A stretch of DNA of 64,000 nt from positions 443,474 through 507,473 of the forward strand of contig CAVZOE010000018.1 in NCBI GenBank assembly GCA_963776725.1, in the 5' to 3' direction. The stretch comes from an uncultured Candidatus Rokubacteria bacterium. Its GTDB lineage: Bacteria; Methylomirabilota; Methylomirabilia; Rokubacteriales; CSP1-6. The notes below the pieces were generated by a model. The model worked only from the letters and a program-made list of their open reading frames with translations. It ran no database searches and had not been told where the DNA came from. The number at the start of each line of letters is the position of its first letter. The stretch's first letter is position 1. The position numbers and the translations under genes were made by a program. Shown here one piece after another: positions 21,222 through 27,071 of this stretch.

Positions 21222-21755
21222 TCAGCGGCCGGCGGTCACCGCGTACCGGAGGATGGCGACCTTCGAGAACGACTCCGTGATCTCGTCGGAGAGCACCATC
21301 CGGAGGGCCTCGGCGAACGGCACGATCCGACGCTCGAAGAACTCGTCGTCGTCGGCGGGCAGGGGGTCGGGGGTGAGATCCCGCGCGACATAACAATAGC
21401 CGGCCTCGTCCAGGTACGCGGGCGACGGGTCGAAGCGGGTGAGAAACTCCAGGCGACCGGCCCGGTGGCCGCCTTCCTCGCGCAGCTCGCGCTGCGCGGC
21501 GGCCACCGGATCTTCTCCGGGTAGCACGCCACCGCCCGGCAACTCCCATGACATGGCGCGCAGCAGGTGTCGATACTGGCGGACGAGCAGGACGCGCTCG
21601 TCGTCCACGAAGGCCAGCACGCCGACCGCCGCGCCCGCGATGAGGACCGGATAGACGCGCTCGGTCCCGTCGGGCAAGCGCCAGCTGTCCTCGCGCAGCG
21701 CGAGCTTGCCGCGCGTGTAGCGGACCGACGAGGACAGTGGCGTCCACGAAGCCAT
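21222..21755 (-). CDS. NUDIX hydrolase (ADP-ribose pyrophosphatase-like)
   Basis: Nudix box GGGVLPGEDPVAAAQRELREEGG. The start is taken at MASWTPL (21755); the tracked ORF is over-extended. Confidence 0.88.
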   Translation of the reverse strand: MASWTPLSSSVRYTRGKLALREDSWRLPDGTERVYPVLIAGAAVGVLAFVDDERVLLVRQYRHLLRAMSWELPGGGVLPGEDPVAAAQRELREEGGHRAGRLEFLTRFDPSPAYLDEAGYCYVARDLTPDPLPADDDEFFERRIVPFAEALRMVLSDEITESFSKVAILRYAVTAGR

Positions 21756-21774
21756 GCGGAGCGTATGGTATCGT

Positions 21775-22014
21775 ATGTTCCCGATGGCGAAGGAGCGTCC
21801 GGTCGACGCGCTCATGAAGAAGCTGGTGCAGGCGGTCGAGGCCTCGCTGGCCGCCACCGAGGCGGCGCGCGACGCGGTGCAGGAGATCCTCAAGCGGGGC
21901 GCCGACACGGGCATCTTCTTCGCCGGCTCCAAGAGCCGCGGATCGTTCTCCGCCGAGCTGACCCCACAAGACAAAGAGTTCCTCCGGGCGGTATCCATCA
22001 AGCCGGAGCGCTGA
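21775..22014 (+). CDS. hypothetical protein
   Basis: 79-86 aa ORF divergent from the NUDIX gene. Its codon bias matches neighbouring genes. I recognise no family. Confidence 0.4.
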   Translation: MFPMAKERPVDALMKKLVQAVEASLAATEAARDAVQEILKRGADTGIFFAGSKSRGSFSAELTPQDKEFLRAVSIKPER

Positions 22015-22018
22015 GCCC

Positions 22019-22251
22019 GTGCGGCTGGTGATGCTGGCCGCGTGGGTCCTGCTGCTGGCCGTCGCGCTGATTCCGCTGCTGCGGCGATACCGCCTGCTCG
22101 GCCCGCCGACGCGCGTCGGGCAGCGATGAGCTGGTGAAGGACCCCGTGTGTCAGACCTACGTCGTCCGCTCCCGTGCCGTCAGCCGCGAGACCGCCTCCG
22201 GCGCTTCGTCACTTCTGCAGCGCCGAGTGCGCAGGCCGCTTCCGCGGCTGA
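22019..22251 (+). CDS. small membrane-anchored YHS/TRASH-domain protein, reconstructed across two 1-nt frame breaks (~22127, ~22197)
   Basis: Three consecutive frames read MLAAWVLLLAVALIPLLRRYRLLGPPTRVGQ / ELVKDPVCQTYVVRSRAVSRETAS / ALRHFCSAECAGRFRG*. This is a TM helix plus the DPVC...FCSxxC metal-binding pattern. Confidence 0.55.
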
Positions 22252-22261
22252 TCCGGCTTCC

Positions 22262-23077
22262 GTGCTCCGACCCGATCCCTGGCGCACCCTCGACGCGCAG
22301 CCCAATGTCGTCAAGCTCATCGAGGGGCTCGAAGCCCGCGGCCGCGCGCGTGGCCAGGTGCGACTGCGGCGCCGATTTCTTCGCTTCGTCCCGGTGCCGC
22401 GTGGCGGCCGCGTGCTCGAGGTGGGCTGCGGCAGCGGCGTCGTGCTCCGCGACCTCGCGGCGATGGTGGGACGCCGCGGCGAGGCCGTCGGCGTGGATCC
22501 CAGTCGGACGATTCTCGACGCGGCGCGGCGACTGTCCCGGCGGGCGCCGGGCGGGCGCATCACGCTGCGCCACGCCGACGGCGCGCACCTGCCGTGGTCG
22601 TCCGACCGCTTCGACGCCGCGCTGGCCATCACCGTCATCCTGCACGTGGCCGAGCCGCTGTCGGTCGTCCGTGAGATGGCGCGCGTGACCCGGCCGGGCG
22701 GACGCGTCGGCCTGCAAGACCAGGACTTCGGCATGCTGGCGGTGACCCATCCCGACCGCGCCCTGACCGATCGGATCATGCAGGGCGTCGCCGCCGCGGT
22801 CTATCCCGAGCCGTACAGTGGCCGCCGGCTGCCGCGCCTGCTCGTCGCCGCCGGGCTGCAGCGCGTGCGGGTCCTGACCGATTTCTTTCAGGACACCACG
22901 CTCGAGCCCTGGACCAAGACCTTCCTGGAGCGGCGCGCCGAGAACGCCGTGCGCTACGAGGTGGTGGACGAACCCACCGCCCAGCGCTGGCTCGACGGCT
23001 TCACCGCCGAGGTGGCGGCCGGTACGTTCGTGCTCACGATGGTCTACTACGGTGCCGTCGGCGTGAAGCCCGCGTGA
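22262..23077 (+). CDS. class I SAM-dependent methyltransferase
   Basis: VLEVGCGSG motif I, followed by DAALAITVILHV and PGGRVGL. The GTG 22262 start is chosen to avoid overlap with the YHS gene; the tracked ORF begins at 22148. Confidence 0.85.
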   Translation: MLRPDPWRTLDAQPNVVKLIEGLEARGRARGQVRLRRRFLRFVPVPRGGRVLEVGCGSGVVLRDLAAMVGRRGEAVGVDPSRTILDAARRLSRRAPGGRITLRHADGAHLPWSSDRFDAALAITVILHVAEPLSVVREMARVTRPGGRVGLQDQDFGMLAVTHPDRALTDRIMQGVAAAVYPEPYSGRRLPRLLVAAGLQRVRVLTDFFQDTTLEPWTKTFLERRAENAVRYEVVDEPTAQRWLDGFTAEVAAGTFVLTMVYYGAVGVKPA

Positions 23078-23979
23078 CGATCGCCACGCGCCGGATCGCC
23101 CTCGCGGTCCTGGCGCTCGCGCTCCTGGCCGGTGTGGCGACCGGCGCCTCGCCGAAGTTCGACGGCGCCGCCGCGCTCAAGCACGTCGAGCGGCTGGTGG
23201 CCATCGGCCCGCGCGTGGCCGGCTCGCCCGGCGGCGTGCGGGCGCGCGAGTACATCGTGACGGAGGCGCGCAAGATCAGCGGCGCGCAGGTCCAGGTGCG
23301 CCCGTTCGAGGCGGACACGCCGGACGGCCTGATGAGCATGGCCAACGTGGTCGCGGTGCTGCCCGGCGCCCGCCCCGACGTCATCATGCTGGCCGGCCAC
23401 TACGACACCAAGCTGTTCCGCGAGTTTCGCTTCGTCGGGGCCAACGACGGTGGCTCCAGCGCCGCGCTGCTCCTCGAGCTCGGCCGCGTCCTCGCCGCGG
23501 CGCCGCGACGCTACACGTACTGGCTGGTGTGGTTCGACGGCGAGGAGGCGCGCGGGGCGTGGACCGCGACCGACAGCCTCTACGGCTCCCGCCAGCTCGC
23601 CGGCGAGCTGGCCAAGACCGGGCACTTGCCGCGGGCGATGATCCTGGCGGACATGATCGGTGACCGCGACCTGTCCATCAATCGCGAGGCGTACTCGGCG
23701 CCCTGGCTCACCGACATCATCTGGGACTCCGCCGCACGCCTGGGCTATGGCCGCCACTTCCGGCGCGAGCTGATGCCGGTCGAGGACGACCACGTGCCGT
23801 TCATGAAGCAAGGCGTCCCGGCCGCACTCCTGATCGACTTCAACTATCCTCCGTGGCACACCGCCGAGGACACGGTGGACAAGGTCTCGGCCCAGAGCCT
23901 GACCGTGGTGGGCGAGGTCCTGGTGGAGTCGCTGCCCTCGGTCGAGCTGCATCTCTCGAAGCTGAGCGGCCCTCGGTGA
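23074..23979 (+). CDS. M28 family peptidase (glutaminyl cyclase/aminopeptidase-like), secreted
   Basis: Signal peptide present. HYDT, NDGGSSAA, FDGEE and EDDHVPF metal-ligand pattern. Confidence 0.85.
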   Translation: MTIATRRIALAVLALALLAGVATGASPKFDGAAALKHVERLVAIGPRVAGSPGGVRAREYIVTEARKISGAQVQVRPFEADTPDGLMSMANVVAVLPGARPDVIMLAGHYDTKLFREFRFVGANDGGSSAALLLELGRVLAAAPRRYTYWLVWFDGEEARGAWTATDSLYGSRQLAGELAKTGHLPRAMILADMIGDRDLSINREAYSAPWLTDIIWDSAARLGYGRHFRRELMPVEDDHVPFMKQGVPAALLIDFNYPPWHTAEDTVDKVSAQSLTVVGEVLVESLPSVELHLSKLSGPR

Positions 23980-24006
23980 GGGGGCCGGAGGAGCTACAAT
24001 TCCGCC

Positions 24007-24549
24007 ATGCCACGCATCCGCGAAGTCGAGGATCCCGGCGACGACCCCATCCTGAAGGACATCTGGTCGAAGGAGCAGGATCGCTTCGGCTTCACCCTGA
24101 ACACGACGAAGATCCAGGCCCACACGCCGGGCATTCTCAGGGCGGCCAAGCAGCTCTCGGTCGCCGTCGACAAATCCGGTCTGCTGCCGCCGCTCCTGCT
24201 CTCGCTCGTCTATCTACGCGTCGCCCTCATCAACGGCTGCCCCTTCTGAATTGACATGAACGCATCCCGTGGGATGCAGGCCGGCGCGACGGAGGACAAG
24301 CTGCGCGCCGTCGCCGAGTCGGCCACCAGCCCGTTGTTCACCGAGCTCGAGCGCACCGCGCTCGCCTACGCCGAGGCCATGACGATCACCGGCCACAAGG
24401 TGACCGACGCGCTCTTCGCCAAGCTCCACGCCCACCTGAGCGAGGCGCAGATGGTGGAGCTCACCGCCGCCGTCGCGCTGGAGAACTTCCGCAGCAAGTT
24501 CAACACCGCGCTGGGCATCGAGGCGCAGGGGTTCTGCGTCCTCAAGTAG
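24007..24549 (+). CDS. carboxymuconolactone decarboxylase/AhpD-like protein with in-frame TGA (24247-24249) at the second position of the CxxC motif; candidate selenoprotein
   Basis: ORFs 24007..24249 and 24256..24549 share one frame. Read-through gives ...LINGCPF[TGA]IDMNASRGMQAG..., matching the NGCxxCxDM core of the family. Confidence 0.65.
24262..24277 (+). promoter_or_regulatory. SECIS-like hairpin GCAUCC-CGUG-GGAUGC
   Basis: Perfect 6-bp GC-rich stem with a 4-nt loop containing GU. It starts 13 nt after the in-frame UGA. Confidence 0.45.
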
Positions 24550-24562
24550 GCGGCGGGCGTGC

Positions 24563-25579
24563 TTACTCGATGATCTGATCCGCTCGCGCCAGCAGCGACG
24601 GCGGGATCGTGAGGCCGAGGGCCTTGGCGGTCTTGAGGTTGATGACCAGCTCGAACTTCGTCGGTTGCTCGACGGGCAGGTCGCCGGGCTTGGTGCCTTT
24701 CAGAATCTTGTCCACGTAGGTCGCGGCGCGCCGAAACAAATCAGCCAGGTTCGCTCCATAGGCCATGAGGCCCCCACCATCGACAAAATCCCTCGACGGG
24801 TACACCGTCGGCAGCCGGTGCTTTGCCGACAAGTCCACCAGGCGCCGTCGCTCGCTGTTGAAGATGGCGCCTCCCCACACCGCCAGCGCGCCTGCGCGCG
24901 CCCGGGTCACATCCAGGAAGGCCCGGTCGAAATCGGCAGAACCGTGCGCCTTGACGAATTGAAGCCGCACCCCCAGCGCCCGCGCTGCGGCTTCTGCTCC
25001 CTGCAGCATGTCCTGGTCCGTGTGCTCTCCGGCGGCATCTGGCTGCCACAGGACCGCGACCTGACTGACTCCCGGAACAGCCTGCTTGAGCTGCTCCAGA
25101 CACTTGCCGATGAGCTCCGGGGCGAGGTTGGACAGTCCCGTGACATTGCCGCCCGGGCGCGCAAGGCTGGTGACGAGCCCGTCCGTGACCGGATCGGTCG
25201 CAGAAGTGAAGACGATGGGGAGGGTCCTCGTCGCTTGCTTGGCGGCCAGGGCGGTGGGTGTGCCTCCTCCCGTCACGATGACATCAACCTTGAGCGCAAT
25301 CAGCTCGGCCGCCAGAGCCGGGAGCCGCTCGATCTTCCCCTCGGCAGATCGGTATTCGATCACGACGTTGCGGCCCTCGACATACCCGAGGTCACGCAGT
25401 CCTTGGAGGAAGGCCGCTCGCAGGTGGAGGTTCGCGCCCGGGTTGAGCCCCAGGAAGCCTACTCGCGGGACGACCTTGGCCGCCGGCTGTGCATCGACGG
25501 CGAGCGGCGCGGCCAGCGCCCCGGCCAGCGAGGTCAGCAGAAAGCGGCGGCGGTCCATGCCGGGACGGTGAGGCATCAC
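24563..25579 (-). CDS. ABC transporter substrate-binding protein (ABC_sub_bind/PF04392-like), Tat signal
   Basis: RRRFLLTSLAGALAAPLAVDA signal, followed by IVFTSATDPV, ARPGGNVTG and PTKFELVINLKTAKALGLTIPPSLLARADQIIE. Confidence 0.85.
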   Translation of the reverse strand: MMPHRPGMDRRRFLLTSLAGALAAPLAVDAQPAAKVVPRVGFLGLNPGANLHLRAAFLQGLRDLGYVEGRNVVIEYRSAEGKIERLPALAAELIALKVDVIVTGGGTPTALAAKQATRTLPIVFTSATDPVTDGLVTSLARPGGNVTGLSNLAPELIGKCLEQLKQAVPGVSQVAVLWQPDAAGEHTDQDMLQGAEAAARALGVRLQFVKAHGSADFDRAFLDVTRARAGALAVWGGAIFNSERRRLVDLSAKHRLPTVYPSRDFVDGGGLMAYGANLADLFRRAATYVDKILKGTKPGDLPVEQPTKFELVINLKTAKALGLTIPPSLLARADQIIE

Positions 25580-25587
25580 CTGTTCTG

Positions 25588-26592
25588 CTACTCGATCACC
25601 TGATCCGCCCGCAGCAGCAACGAGGGTGGAACCGTGAGCCCGAGGGCCTTGGCGGCTTTGACGTTGACGACCAGCTCGAACTTCGTGGGCTGCTCGATCG
25701 GGAGATCGGCCGGCTTCGCCCCTTTCAGGATCTTGTCGACGTAGGCCGCCGCACGACGGAACTGCTCGGTGAAGCTCGGACCGTACGACATGAACCCCCC
25801 GGCGACGGCGGCCTCCCTCAGGCCGTACATGACGGGCAGGCGCTGCTCGGCCGCGAGCTGGATGATGCTGCTCGCCTCCCGGACGAACAGGGGGTCGGCC
25901 AGCACCAGGGCCGCGCCGGTGCCGCGCTTGCCGATCGCCCGCAAGGCCTCACTGATCTCGTCACGAGTGCTGACCTCGGCGACATCGACGCGCAGCTTCA
26001 AGGTTCGGGCGGTCGCCAGAACCGTTTTCACGCGGGGCGGGTGGGAGGGGTTCATGGGGTTGGCCAGCACCGCGATCGACGCCAGCCCTTTCACCGCCTC
26101 TCGCAGCAGATCGACCTGTTTGCCCGCCACCTCGGTCCCGACGAAGCTCAATCCCGTCACGTTCCCGCCGGGACGCGCCAGGCTCGCGACCAGGCCGACG
26201 GCGACGGGGTCGGACGGAATCGTCATCACGATCGGCAGCGTGCGCGTCGCCTGCTTGGCGGCCAGGGCGACCTGCGTGGACGACACGACGATCACCTCGA
26301 CCCCGATCCGGCTCAGCTCCTCGACGGCGGCGATGGCGGGCTCCATGCCCAGCTCCAGGTATCGCCGCTCGATGACGATGCTTCGAGGCTGGACCCAGCC
26401 ATGCTCTTGCAGGCCCGCCACGAACGCGTCCCAGAACGAGTCGGTCACCGGTGTGGTCGGCGCGTTGCCCAGATAGGCGATCCGTCGTACGCCGCCTGCC
26501 CGTTGCGCCGCCACGACGCGCGGGGCGGCGATAGCGCCGGTGAGCGAGGTCAGCAGGAAGTGGCGGCGATTCACACCGGGACAATAGAGCAT
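25588..26592 (-). CDS. ABC transporter substrate-binding protein (PF04392-like), tandem paralogue
   Basis: Start at MLYCPGVNRRHFLL (26592). Same motif set as its neighbour (ARPGGNVTG, PTKFELVVNVKAAKALGLTVPPSLLLRADQVIE). Confidence 0.85.
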   Translation of the reverse strand: MLYCPGVNRRHFLLTSLTGAIAAPRVVAAQRAGGVRRIAYLGNAPTTPVTDSFWDAFVAGLQEHGWVQPRSIVIERRYLELGMEPAIAAVEELSRIGVEVIVVSSTQVALAAKQATRTLPIVMTIPSDPVAVGLVASLARPGGNVTGLSFVGTEVAGKQVDLLREAVKGLASIAVLANPMNPSHPPRVKTVLATARTLKLRVDVAEVSTRDEISEALRAIGKRGTGAALVLADPLFVREASSIIQLAAEQRLPVMYGLREAAVAGGFMSYGPSFTEQFRRAAAYVDKILKGAKPADLPIEQPTKFELVVNVKAAKALGLTVPPSLLLRADQVIE

Positions 26593-26663
26593 CCCCCGTC
26601 CGCTCGCGTGAGGATCCGCGCGCCACGCGCCACGTCCGGCCGCGACCCGGTGGTCGATCGGCG

Positions 26664-27071
26664 CTAGGACGCCCCGTACACGGTGAGCTCGACGAGGTTG
26701 TCGTCCGGATCGCGAACGTACACGCTGGTCGACGGGCCGCGCGCGCAGGTGCGCAGACCGGGGCCGGCTTCCGGCACGATGCCATTGCGCTTCAACAGGG
26801 CGACGATCTCTTCTACGGTTCCGTCCCACTCCAGGCAGAAGTCGGCGCCGCCCACCGCGGGCTTTCGCGCGCCAAGGTAGCCCGGGCGCGCCGGCGCCTC
26901 GGGACCGTGCACGTTGATCTTCTGCGCGGCATTGATGCGGATCGTCGCCATGTCCGGACGACCCGGCCGTTGCTCCCACGCGATCGCAAGGCCGAGCTTC
27001 TCGTAGAAGCTCAGCGTGCGCTGCAGATCGCCGGCGACGATGACCCAGTGATCGATGGCCCTGATTGCCAT
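26664..27071 (-). CDS. VOC (glyoxalase/bleomycin-resistance/dioxygenase) family protein
   Basis: 135 aa with IDHWVIVAGDL...FYEKLG at the N-terminus and YVRDPDDNLVEL at the C-terminus. Confidence 0.8.
   Translation of the reverse strand: MAIRAIDHWVIVAGDLQRTLSFYEKLGLAIAWEQRPGRPDMATIRINAAQKINVHGPEAPARPGYLGARKPAVGGADFCLEWDGTVEEIVALLKRNGIVPEAGPGLRTCARGPSTSVYVRDPDDNLVELTVYGAS

What the first reader, a model, noticed from the sequence alone, without database searches (positions are those of the whole stretch)
24007..24549. In-frame UGA on the second Cys of the CxxC motif of an AhpD/CMD-family gene, with a hairpin 13 nt downstream: candidate selenoprotein
ORFs 24007-24249 and 24256-24549 are in the same frame, separated only by TGA (24247-24249) and two sense codons. 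Read through, the peptide is ...RVALINGCPF[TGA]IDMNASRGMQAGATEDKL.... This matches the conserved ...NGCxxC(I/L)DM... redox core of carboxymuconolactone decarboxylase/AhpD-like proteins, so the stop falls exactly on a redox Cys. A hairpin GCAUCC-CGUG-GGAUGC (24262-24277, GU in the loop) starts 13 nt after the UGA, where a bacterial SECIS is expected. AhpD-like proteins are among the families reported to have Sec-containing members. Every other gene lesion I see in this window is an indel, so a random nonsense substitution on this particular codon is the less economical explanation.
Basis: partly seen in the sequence, partly recalled or inferred. Interest (0 to 1): 0.78.

Follow-up and report, generated by a model that had tools for sequence, protein, structure and literature searches.

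The report
Selenocysteine-coding UGA in AhpD-like gene
The apparent stop codon that splits this small redox gene is almost certainly read as selenocysteine: every relative examined keeps it, with a matching RNA hairpin downstream, which makes it a mis-annotated member of a selenoprotein family known since 2005.

Summary

- **The gene.** Window 24007-24549 (+) is one 180-codon gene of the AhpD/CMD superfamily (Pfam PF02627). It comes from a Rokubacteria/Methylomirabilota genome.
- **The codon.** The in-frame TGA (24247-24249) replaces the second Cys of the CxxC motif. It is TGA in all 80 GTDB species-level relatives, in six metagenome loci and in six loci from more divergent lineages. At the same column, 109 of 114 distant full-length homologues have Cys.
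- **Selection.** Both halves are under purifying selection (median dN/dS 0.29 and 0.35).
- **The hairpin.** The hairpin at 24262-24277 meets the four criteria of the published bacterial SECIS model.
  - Its stem codons have the three lowest synonymous entropies of 48 conserved codons.
  - Other lineages have different stems (4 of 6 pairs doubly compensated) but keep the 18-nt spacing and a CGUG-type loop.
- **Rivals.** A pseudogene, two separate genes and codon reassignment are each contradicted by the data.
- **What I could not test.** No selA, selB, selD or tRNA-Sec lies in the window or in 1.13 Mb of related loci. Evidence for the Sec machinery is therefore only phylum-level and from the literature.
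- **Novelty.** AhpD-like CxxU selenoproteins have been known since 2005, so this is a new member of a known kind. Public gene calls split it into 80-aa and 99-aa fragments.

The parts
24007..24549 (+). Complete selenoprotein coding sequence: 180 codons plus a TAG stop. AhpD/CMD-superfamily protein with a C78-P-F-U81 redox motif.
   Evidence: PF02627, E 3.5e-15. PDB relatives PA0269 (2ijc/2o4d), E 4.5e-20; median dN/dS 0.29 upstream and 0.35 downstream of the TGA, against 79 orthologues.
24238..24249 (+). CxxU redox motif: TGC CCC TTC TGA = Cys78-Pro-Phe-Sec81.
   Evidence: C78, P79, F80 and TGA81 are each 80/80 in the orthologues; distant homologues have Cys at position 78 in 105/114 and at position 81 in 109/114.
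24247..24249 (+). In-frame UGA, inferred to be decoded as selenocysteine.
   Evidence: TGA in 85/85 motif matches, in L067 and L086, and in L089-L094. Neighbouring codons vary synonymously: TGT 45 / TGC 35; CCC 40 / CCG 34 / CCA 5 / CCT 1.
24262..24277 (+). Bacterial SECIS-type hairpin inside the coding sequence: 6-bp stem GCAUCC/GGAUGC and apical loop CGUG (24268-24271). There are 18 nt between the UGA and the loop. dG is -7.7 kcal/mol.
   Evidence: all four bSECIS criteria are met in 80/80 orthologues; stem codons 86, 87 and 89 have the three lowest synonymous entropies of 48 conserved codons; other lineages have different stems in the same register, with 4 of 6 pairs doubly compensated; the Arg88 codon CGN (loop nt 1-3) is invariant only in Sec forms.
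24535..24537 (+). Codon for Cys177 (in QGFC), a third conserved cysteine. It is a candidate resolving or partner thiol; this is an inference.
   Evidence: Cys in 79/80 orthologues and in 93/114 distant homologues.
23987..23993 (+). GGAGGAG, a possible Shine-Dalgarno sequence 13 nt upstream of the ATG at 24007. This is an inference from the sequence only.
   Evidence: direct reading of the sequence.
22148..23979 (+). Upstream same-strand neighbours, probably co-transcribed: a class I methyltransferase (22148-23077) overlapping an M28 peptidase (23074-23979), which ends 27 nt before the selenoprotein start.
   Evidence: Pfam; the same gene order in L001 and L004-L006 (NUDIX, two small ORFs, methyltransferase, M28, 80-aa + 99-aa). 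L091 has different neighbours, so the link is specific to this lineage.

Best explanation
Window 24007-24549 is a single intact gene for a 180-residue selenoprotein of the AhpD/CMD superfamily.

During translation, the UGA at 24247-24249 is not read as stop. The hairpin that starts 13 nt downstream (24262-24277) acts as a bacterial SECIS. Its apical loop CGUG lies 18 nt from the UGA. The hairpin recruits SelB carrying Sec-tRNA(Sec), and selenocysteine is inserted in place of the second Cys of the CxxC motif.

The product carries a C78-P-F-U81 redox centre at the start of the second active-site helix of the AhpD fold. It most likely acts as a thiol/selenol oxidoreductase, that is, a peroxide or disulfide reductase. 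Sec81 would be the attacking nucleophile and would form a selenenylsulfide with Cys78. The conserved Cys177 may be a further partner.

Shown here: conservation of the UGA, the Cys/Sec pairing, purifying selection on both halves, RNA-level constraint and compensatory change in the hairpin, and family membership. Inferred: dependence on SelB and tRNA-Sec, actual selenium incorporation, the catalytic roles of U81, C78 and C177, and the substrate.
For: - TGA is at this codon in all 80 GTDB species representatives at 61-80% identity, in 6 metagenome loci, and in the divergent lineages L089-L094. Adjacent codons change synonymously.
- 109 of 114 distant full-length homologues have Cys at the aligned column.
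- Median dN/dS is 0.29 for the N-terminal half and 0.35 for the C-terminal half.
- Hairpin versus published bSECIS criteria (PMC13188914, Fig. [quoted passage not shown] This holds in 80/80 orthologues.
- Synonymous suppression is confined to the stem codons. Ala86 is GCA in 74/74 (1.7% of Ala codons elsewhere) and Ser87 is TCC in 80/80. The loop codon Arg88 varies freely: CGT 36, CGG 32, AGG 6, CGC 6.
- Five different stem sequences occur in different lineages. Four are in the same register, with double compensatory changes at 4 of 6 pairs. One subclade has a replacement hairpin shifted 3 nt, with a GGUCU loop.
- Arg88 is invariant in Sec forms but is L/I/T/E/V in Cys forms.
- TGA is otherwise an ordinary stop in this window, ending 24 of 34 well-supported ORFs.
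- The AhpD-like CxxU selenoprotein family is documented (PMC1088965, PMC2398784). The phylum is reported as Sec-using (PMC13188914, citing Deng et al. 2026; PMC13582414).
Against: - No selA, selB, selD or tRNA-Sec was found in the window or in 1.13 Mb of related loci. The machinery is therefore not shown for this genome.
- No Rfam SECIS family matches.
- On the single sequence, the hairpin's stability is unremarkable for 70% GC DNA (z = -0.10). At -7.7 kcal/mol the window's own hairpin only just passes the -7.5 threshold, and it lacks the optional seventh pair that 45 of 74 class-1 orthologues have.
- There is no experimental evidence of selenium incorporation.
Confidence: 0.9

Rival explanations
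1. SECIS-dependent recoding of the UGA as cysteine rather than selenocysteine. This would use a tRNA-ReC (SelC*)-type tRNA delivered by SelB, giving a CxxC protein from a UGA codon.
For: PMC13582414 reports tRNA-ReC-like tRNAs in several phyla. It notes that they decode UGA as Cys in the presence of a downstream SECIS. Nothing in the sequence data distinguishes Sec from Cys insertion.
Against: In that study tRNA-ReC was associated with UXXU-type genomes in other phyla (Armatimonadota, Desulfobacterota, JAPLJL01), not with Methylomirabilota. A plain TGC/TGT codon would give the same product at no cost, yet no TGC/TGT variant occurs among more than 85 orthologues. That argues for a benefit specific to Sec.
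Confidence: 0.04
2. Low-level or programmed stop-codon read-through by a near-cognate tRNA (Trp or Cys) without SelB. The conserved hairpin would act only as a read-through stimulator or a ribosome pause.
For: Sec machinery is not shown for this genome. Hairpins downstream of stop codons can stimulate read-through in other systems (general knowledge).
Against: The aligned residue in homologues is the redox Cys (109/114). Trp at that position would destroy the motif. The loop motif G[G/U] and the 18-21 nt spacing match the SelB-type bSECIS model. The loop nucleotides are conserved enough to fix Arg88 in Sec forms only. The phylum is reported to use Sec (PMC13188914, PMC13582414).
Confidence: 0.04
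3. Two genuine separate genes of 80 aa and 97-99 aa, as current gene callers annotate them. That would be a split CMD domain whose halves associate after translation.
For: Public gene calls list hundreds of 99-aa and 80-aa products. Ten of 80 orthologues have ATG immediately after the TGA.
Against: In 70 of 80 orthologues codon 82 is ATC, ATT or ATA, which is not a start. In 63 of 80 the first ATG/GTG/TTG is codon 90, inside the hairpin. Yet D83, N85, S87, R88 and G89 are 100% conserved as amino acids, so they are translated. The split would cut the CxxC motif before its second Cys. Cys-form homologues are single 180-190-aa proteins.
Confidence: 0.01
4. A pseudogene or a sequencing error: a chance TGC/TGT-to-TGA substitution in this genome.
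For: TGA is one substitution away from TGC or TGT.
Against: The same TGA is present in more than 85 independent assemblies from different samples and technologies. Both halves are under purifying selection.
Confidence: 0.005

Closest known systems
AhpD-like CxxU selenoproteins of Zhang, Fomenko & Gladyshev: 'AhpD-like protein' (COG2128) and 'CMD domain-containing protein' (PF02627) from the Sargasso Sea (PMC1088965), and 'AhpD-like 1/2' from GOS (PMC2398784)
   Same: - Same superfamily, and the same CxxU motif with Sec replacing the second Cys.
- Cys-containing homologues are widespread.
- A small SECIS hairpin with a G in the apical loop lies just downstream of the UGA.
- JGI names the C-terminal fragments 'alkylhydroperoxidase family enzyme'. 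From my own knowledge, that is the COG2128 product name.
   Different: - Those members were described from marine metagenomes. This is a soil and groundwater Rokubacteria/Methylomirabilota clade.
- In this clade the Sec form is fixed: no Cys variant among 80 species representatives.
- I did not align the window protein against the original Sargasso or GOS sequences, so which of the two subfamilies it belongs to is not settled.
NCBIfam NF053654 'GroundWater_YciW', YciW-related (seleno)protein
   Same: Best NCBIfam match, end to end (residues 1-175 on profile positions 1-175 of 179, E 3e-44). It is a curated family that includes selenoprotein members.
   Different: The score of 150.9 bits is far below the curated cutoff of 310, so the window protein is a relative and not a member of that equivalog family. 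TIGR01926 (53.8 against 81.8) and NF041047 (16.8 against 110) also fail their cutoffs.
PA0269 of Pseudomonas aeruginosa (PDB 2o4d/2ijc) and M. tuberculosis AhpD
   Same: - All-helical AhpD fold by sequence (E 4.5e-20, residues 40-172).
- The Cys-X-X-Cys at the start of the second helix of the conserved helix pair aligns on C78 and U81.
- PA0269 has weak thiol-dependent H2O2-reducing activity (PMC3141380).
   Different: - PA0269 has Cys, not Sec.
- The proton relay described as essential (Glu36, Tyr50, His55, with His55 called invariant; PMC3141380) is not conserved. Here the equivalents are S/A/P66, F80 and N85.
- This branch instead has an invariant Asp83 and a conserved C-terminal Cys177.
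- No ahpC neighbour is present.
E. coli fdhF-type bacterial SECIS and the bSECIS consensus model of Zhang & Gladyshev 2005 (as summarised in PMC13188914)
   Same: - It lies within the coding sequence immediately 3' of the UGA, with a small apical loop containing G followed by U or G.
- Spacing of 18-21 nt is within the 16-37 nt range.
- The class-2 loop GGUCU resembles the fdhF GGUC loop; that resemblance is from my own memory and was not tested.
   Different: - The stem is very short (6-7 bp), and no bulged U is evident.
- No Rfam SECIS model matches.
- Binding to SelB is untested.

Membership tests
Bacterial selenoprotein gene (general criteria) | In-frame UGA conserved among orthologues, with coding conservation on both sides | tested here: met
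   TGA in all 80 GTDB loci, 6 metagenome loci and L089-L094. Median dN/dS 0.29 and 0.35 on the two sides.
Bacterial selenoprotein gene (general criteria) | Cys-containing homologues align Cys with the UGA | tested here: met
   109 of 114 distant full-length homologues have Cys at the column.
Bacterial selenoprotein gene (general criteria) | bSECIS stem-loop: 3-9 nt loop, 4-16 bp stem, G in the first two loop positions, 16-37 nt from the UGA, MFE <= -7.5 kcal/mol (PMC13188914) | tested here: met
   Window: 4-nt loop CGUG, 6 bp, 18 nt, -7.7 kcal/mol. All 80 orthologues pass. Compensatory changes occur across lineages, and synonymous sites in the stem are suppressed.
Bacterial selenoprotein gene (general criteria) | selA, selB, selC (tRNA-Sec) and selD present in the same genome | not testable with these tools
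   None found in the 64-kb window or in 1.13 Mb of related loci, but only a small part of any genome was available. There is phylum-level support only: a Methylomirabilota MAG predicted to have 63 selenoprotein genes (PMC13188914, citing Deng et al. 2026) and Sec-type hydrogenases in Methylomirabilota (PMC13582414).
Bacterial selenoprotein gene (general criteria) | Selenium actually incorporated at the UGA position | not testable with these tools
   Needs 75Se labelling or mass spectrometry.
AhpD/CMD superfamily (Pfam PF02627) | Score above the Pfam gathering threshold | tested here: met
   56.2 bits against 23, residues 43-124 on profile positions 3-84 of 84. TIGR00778 ahpD_dom scores 28.8 against 27.8.
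AhpD-like structural family sensu PA0269 / M. tuberculosis AhpD (PMC3141380) | Cys-X-X-Cys at the start of the second helix of the conserved helix pair | tested here: met
   C78-P-F-U81 aligns on C48-A-Y-C51 of PA0269, with Sec in place of the second Cys.
AhpD-like structural family sensu PA0269 / M. tuberculosis AhpD (PMC3141380) | Proton relay residues Glu36 and the 'invariant' His55 (four residues after the second Cys) | tested here: not met
   The His55 equivalent is Asn85 in 80/80 orthologues and His in only 8/114 distant homologues. The Glu36 equivalent is A/P/S66. The protein therefore has the fold and the motif, but is not a canonical AhpD with that relay.
NCBIfam NF053654 GroundWater_YciW (seleno)protein | Score at or above the curated cutoff of 310 bits | tested here: not met
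   150.9 bits. It is a relative, not a member.
NCBIfam TIGR01926 peroxidase-related enzyme (listed as the 'AhpD-like protein' CxxU family in PMC13188914) | Score at or above the curated cutoff of 81.8 bits | tested here: not met
   53.8 bits.

The most novel reading that the evidence does not exclude
The Rokubacteria-type proteins may form a distinct selenoprotein subfamily that no curated model captures.

- It has its own active-site signature: C-P-F-U-x-D-x-N plus a C-terminal Cys. It lacks the AhpD proton relay.
- The Sec form is fixed across the whole clade, with no Cys reversion in 80 species. That would make it a marker of obligate selenium use in this uncultured phylum.
- It is an unusually clear case of a SECIS loop dictating an amino acid: Arg88 is conserved only in Sec forms.
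- Its chemistry could differ from AhpD-type peroxide reduction. For example, the CMD-fold debrominase Bmp8 is among the PDB relatives.
Probability: 0.2. Interest if true: 0.45.

Novelty: new member of a known kind. Interest (0 to 1): 0.3.

Why it matters
**Annotation.** The gene is split into an 80-aa and a 99-aa ORF in the JGI and ENA gene calls examined. At least 543 tblastn-confirmed stretches in GTDB species representatives encode a relative of it. Recognising it as one selenoprotein corrects those records. It also gives a simple marker for Sec use in Rokubacteria/Methylomirabilota, an uncultured soil and groundwater phylum recently reported to hold very large selenoproteomes (PMC13188914).

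**Biology.** It is a clean natural example of a coding-region SECIS under dual constraint. Synonymous sites in the stem are frozen. Stems are swapped by compensatory change between lineages. The loop fixes an Arg codon only in Sec forms.

It does not change what is known about Sec decoding or about the AhpD-like selenoprotein family.

Tried and rejected
- **Rfam.** Gathering thresholds on the whole window gave nothing. E <= 10 on 24150-24400 gave only three weak, irrelevant hits, none a SECIS family.
- **tRNA-Sec.** ARAGORN on the window and on all loci found none: 0 tRNAs in the window and 2 tRNA-Thr in the loci.
- **Sec machinery genes.** tblastn with E. coli SelA, SelB and SelD against the window plus 1.13 Mb of Rokubacteria loci gave no hit at E <= 1e-3. 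This says nothing about whole genomes.
- **Single-sequence folding.** It does not distinguish the hairpin from shuffles, so the single-sequence thermodynamic argument was dropped in favour of comparative evidence.
- **Other Sec codons.**
  - The scan of the window found none. The hits at 23977 and 30859 look like ordinary stops with a same-frame ORF downstream, and 28693 has no SECIS or redox motif.
  - The scan of the loci gave seven TGAs with a nearby Cys, none convincing.
- **The count of structure pairs.** I wanted to run it on a cross-lineage alignment. MAFFT returned an ungapped alignment (A4) in which the lineages with a 5-nt loop are offset by one column. One structure string cannot describe both, so I used my own register-aware pair table instead.
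- **Literature gaps.** The supplement of PMC13582414 is not held. PMC12013261 (Haft & Tolstoy 2025) is not held. Searches for Rokubacteria or Methylomirabilis with selenocysteine gave nothing specific.
- **'Full-length' entries with G, S, L or W at the Sec column.** P0004 and P0006 have TGA in their DNA, so their W is probably a product of gene calling under another genetic code. The DNA of P0001-P0003 was not checked.
- **Structure prediction.** Not run. The tool returns no coordinates, so it could not test the C78/U81/C177 geometry.

Full report
**1. The observation**

- ORF 24007-24249 and ORF 24256-24549 share a frame. They are separated by TGA (24247-24249) and the codons ATT GAC.
- The read-through product is 180 aa and contains ...RVALINGCPF[TGA]IDMNASRGMQAG....
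- The hairpin is GCAUCC (24262-24267), CGUG (24268-24271), GGAUGC (24272-24277), and it starts at the 13th nt after the UGA.

Taken alone, the hairpin is not statistically remarkable. The 57-nt region folds at -13.8 kcal/mol against a shuffle mean of -13.55 (z = -0.10). No Rfam family matches, either at gathering scores for the whole window or at E <= 10 for the region. The case therefore rests on comparative evidence.

**2. Family and organism**

With Cys substituted for the stop, the protein matches Pfam CMD (PF02627; 56.2 bits against a cutoff of 23). Its best NCBIfam hit is NF053654, 'YciW-related (seleno)protein'. The match is end to end (E 3e-44) but scores 150.9 bits against a cutoff of 310. 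TIGR01926 also falls below its cutoff.

The nearest solved structures are AhpD-fold proteins. PA0269 (2ijc/2o4d) scores E 4.5e-20, and its C-A-Y-C aligns on C78-P-F-[TGA].

A scan of GTDB species representatives found 543 confirmed relatives. The best 80 are almost all labelled Rokubacteria / Rokuibacteriota / Methylomirabilota. The window is 70% GC.

**3. The UGA is conserved, not accidental**

The public protein search returned mostly 99-aa products covering only the C-terminal 55% of the query. In the contigs these directly abut 80-aa ORFs.

At the DNA level, the codon is TGA in 85 of 85 motif matches. It is also TGA in the two loci my regex missed (L067 and L086). The more divergent lineages carry it too: L089 (a TARA Oceans contig, 45% GC, 49% identity), L090, L091/L092, L093 and L094.

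The flanking codons vary synonymously: Cys78 is TGT 45 / TGC 35, Pro79 is CCC 40 / CCG 34 / CCA 5 / CCT 1, and Gly77 is GGC 58 / GGG 20. The window compared with 79 orthologues gives a median dN/dS of 0.29 upstream and 0.35 downstream of the TGA. Both halves therefore encode protein under selection.

**4. Cys/Sec pairing**

A profile search of 1.84 billion cluster representatives found 7,210 relatives. I aligned 114 full-length ones at about 21-49% identity. The column under the TGA is Cys in 109 of them, and the first motif Cys is present in 105.

Two database 'full-length' entries with W at this column (P0004 and P0006) have TGA in their DNA.

**5. The hairpin behaves as a functional RNA element**

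The published bSECIS model (PMC13188914, Fig. 2 legend) sets four requirements:
- an apical loop of 3-9 nt;
- a stem of 4-16 bp;
- G in the first two loop positions, usually followed by G or U;
- 16-37 nt between the UGA and the loop, and an MFE of -7.5 kcal/mol or lower.

All 80 distinct orthologue sequences pass.
- Class 1 (74 sequences, including the window) has a GCAUCC/GGAUGC stem. Its loops are CGUG (36), CGGG (32) or AGGG (6), the spacing is 18 nt, and the MFE is -7.7 to -10.5 kcal/mol.
- Class 2 (6 sequences) has a UCCCGC/GCGGGA stem, a GGUCU loop, 21-nt spacing and an MFE of -10.1 kcal/mol.

Among 48 conserved residues with four or more codons, the three lowest synonymous entropies belong to the three stem codons.
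- Ala86 is GCA in 74/74, while GCA makes up 1.7% of Ala codons elsewhere in these genes.
- Ser87 is TCC in 80/80.
- Gly89 is GGG in 74/80.
- The loop codon Arg88, by contrast, has an entropy of 1.61 bits.

An optional seventh pair shows association: U-A 32, C-G 13, C.A 28 and U.G 0.

Across lineages the stem sequence changes but the structure persists. L089 has UUCGUUC/GAACGAA, L091 has UUCCGUC/GACGGAG and L093 has UCGUUC/GAACGA. All three have 18-nt spacing. L089 and L091 have loops CGUGC and CGUGU, and the longer L093 loop also begins with CGUG. Four of the six pairs change on both sides.

Arg88, whose CGN codon supplies loop nucleotides 1-3, is invariant in Sec forms but is L/I/T/E/V in Cys forms. 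I infer that the RNA element is constraining the protein sequence.

**6. Rival explanations**

- **Pseudogene or sequencing error.** Excluded by the conservation and the selection data in section 3.
- **Two separate genes.** In 70 of 80 orthologues codon 82 is ATC, ATT or ATA. In 63 of 80 the first possible start is ATG at codon 90, inside the hairpin. Yet D83, N85, S87, R88 and G89 are invariant as amino acids.
- **Codon reassignment.** TGA ends 24 of 34 well-supported ORFs in the window, including the M28 peptidase gene immediately upstream.
- **Not excluded by sequence.** Two rivals remain: SECIS-dependent Cys insertion by a tRNA-ReC-type tRNA (PMC13582414), and SelB-independent read-through. 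Both are unlikely. The first because no TGC/TGT variant exists among more than 85 orthologues. The second because the loop motif and spacing match the SelB-type model.

**7. What could not be shown**

No selA, selB, selD or tRNA-Sec lies in the window or in the 1.13 Mb of related loci. Only about 20 kb per genome was accessible, so this does not bear on whether the machinery exists.

Support is at the phylum level and comes from the literature.
- A review reports a Methylomirabilota MAG predicted to encode 63 selenoprotein genes (PMC13188914, citing Deng et al. 2026, Cell Rep).
- Sec-type group 4 hydrogenases are reported in Methylomirabilota. In that study about 90% of Sec-type genomes had at least three of the four selABCD genes, counted across all phyla (PMC13582414).

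No second Sec candidate was found in the window.

**8. Mechanism and function**

Shown here:
- The protein has an AhpD-fold helix pair.
- C78-x-x-U81 lies where PA0269 and M. tuberculosis AhpD carry their catalytic Cys-X-X-Cys (PMC3141380).

Inferred:
- Sec81 is the nucleophile and forms a selenenylsulfide with Cys78.
- The enzyme is a peroxide or disulfide reductase.

The canonical AhpD proton relay is not conserved. The position of His55, called invariant in PMC3141380, is Asn85 in 80/80 orthologues, and the position of Glu36 is A/P/S. This branch instead has C-x-[F/W]-[C/U]-x-D with Asp83 (105/114 in distant homologues), plus a C-terminal Cys177 (79/80 orthologues and 93/114 distant homologues). 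The low pKa of a selenol could make a deprotonating relay less necessary. That is my inference from general chemistry. In any case the Asn is a feature of the whole subfamily, Cys forms included.

Gene context in Rokubacteria is NUDIX (opposite strand), two small ORFs, a methyltransferase, an M28 peptidase, and then this gene 27 nt downstream. Another lineage has different neighbours, so no functional partner can be inferred. There is no ahpC neighbour.

**9. Comparison with what is known, and verdict**

AhpD-like and CMD-domain CxxU selenoproteins were described in 2005 (27 and 4 Sargasso Sea sequences; PMC1088965). They are among the most abundant marine selenoprotein families: AhpD-like 1 (COG2128) had 299 members and AhpD-like 2 (PF02627) had 70 (PMC2398784). 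The 2026 review lists them.

This is therefore a new member of a known kind, perhaps a distinct subfamily. It is fixed as the Sec form across a soil and groundwater phylum, and public gene calls systematically split it.

The result is sound but not surprising, so I score interest at 0.3.

Noticed in passing
L034, L036, L066, L068, L072, L077, L085, L086: Several GTDB species-representative MAGs that carry this Rokubacteria-type gene at 61-72% identity are labelled as unrelated taxa. The labels are Binatia, Dormiibacterota, Verrucomicrobiia, Acidoferrum, Limnocylindria, the archaeon Nitrosocosmicus, and Stellaceae. Most come from one soil MAG catalogue (SMAG). This could be binning contamination or horizontal transfer.
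   Followed up: no
window 24563-25579 (-) and 25588-26979 (-): Two tandem paralogous ABC transporter substrate-binding protein genes (PF04392) lie convergent to the selenoprotein gene. The first starts only 13 nt after the selenoprotein stop codon. The second ORF has a long Arg/Gly-rich N-terminal extension as listed, so its true start is probably further downstream.
   Followed up: partly
window 30859 (+): A TGA ends a 407-codon ORF (...AKRDGGNRVGVL*). It is followed in the same frame by 142 open codons with coding-like GC3, and a 9-bp hairpin lies about 35 nt downstream. There is no Cys or redox motif. It looks like an ordinary stop plus a same-frame downstream ORF, possibly with a terminator-like hairpin.
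   Followed up: partly
P0125 and P0183: Two distant homologues have Arg at the Sec/Cys column (CPFRID and CPCRID). CGA is one substitution from TGA. These could be Sec-to-Arg mutants, translation artefacts or inactive paralogues.
   Followed up: no
P0127, P0138, P0153, P0167, P0171, P0205, P0223, P0233, P0234, P0259: Many distant Cys-form homologues are 330-370 aa, with this domain occupying only the C-terminal half (for example residues 164-323 of 339). The family therefore also occurs fused to an unidentified N-terminal domain.
   Followed up: no
window 21567-22031 (+) and L001 529-998, L004 509-974: In the related loci, two conserved small ORFs of about 76 aa with no Pfam hit lie between the NUDIX gene and the methyltransferase gene. 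I did not characterise the corresponding window region.
   Followed up: no
L081 2853-3314: This orthologue has an internal deletion of about 26 residues in the C-terminal half (...TSPLF/ARVRKHF...) but keeps the TGA and the class-1 hairpin. It may be a degenerating copy or an assembly artefact.
   Followed up: no
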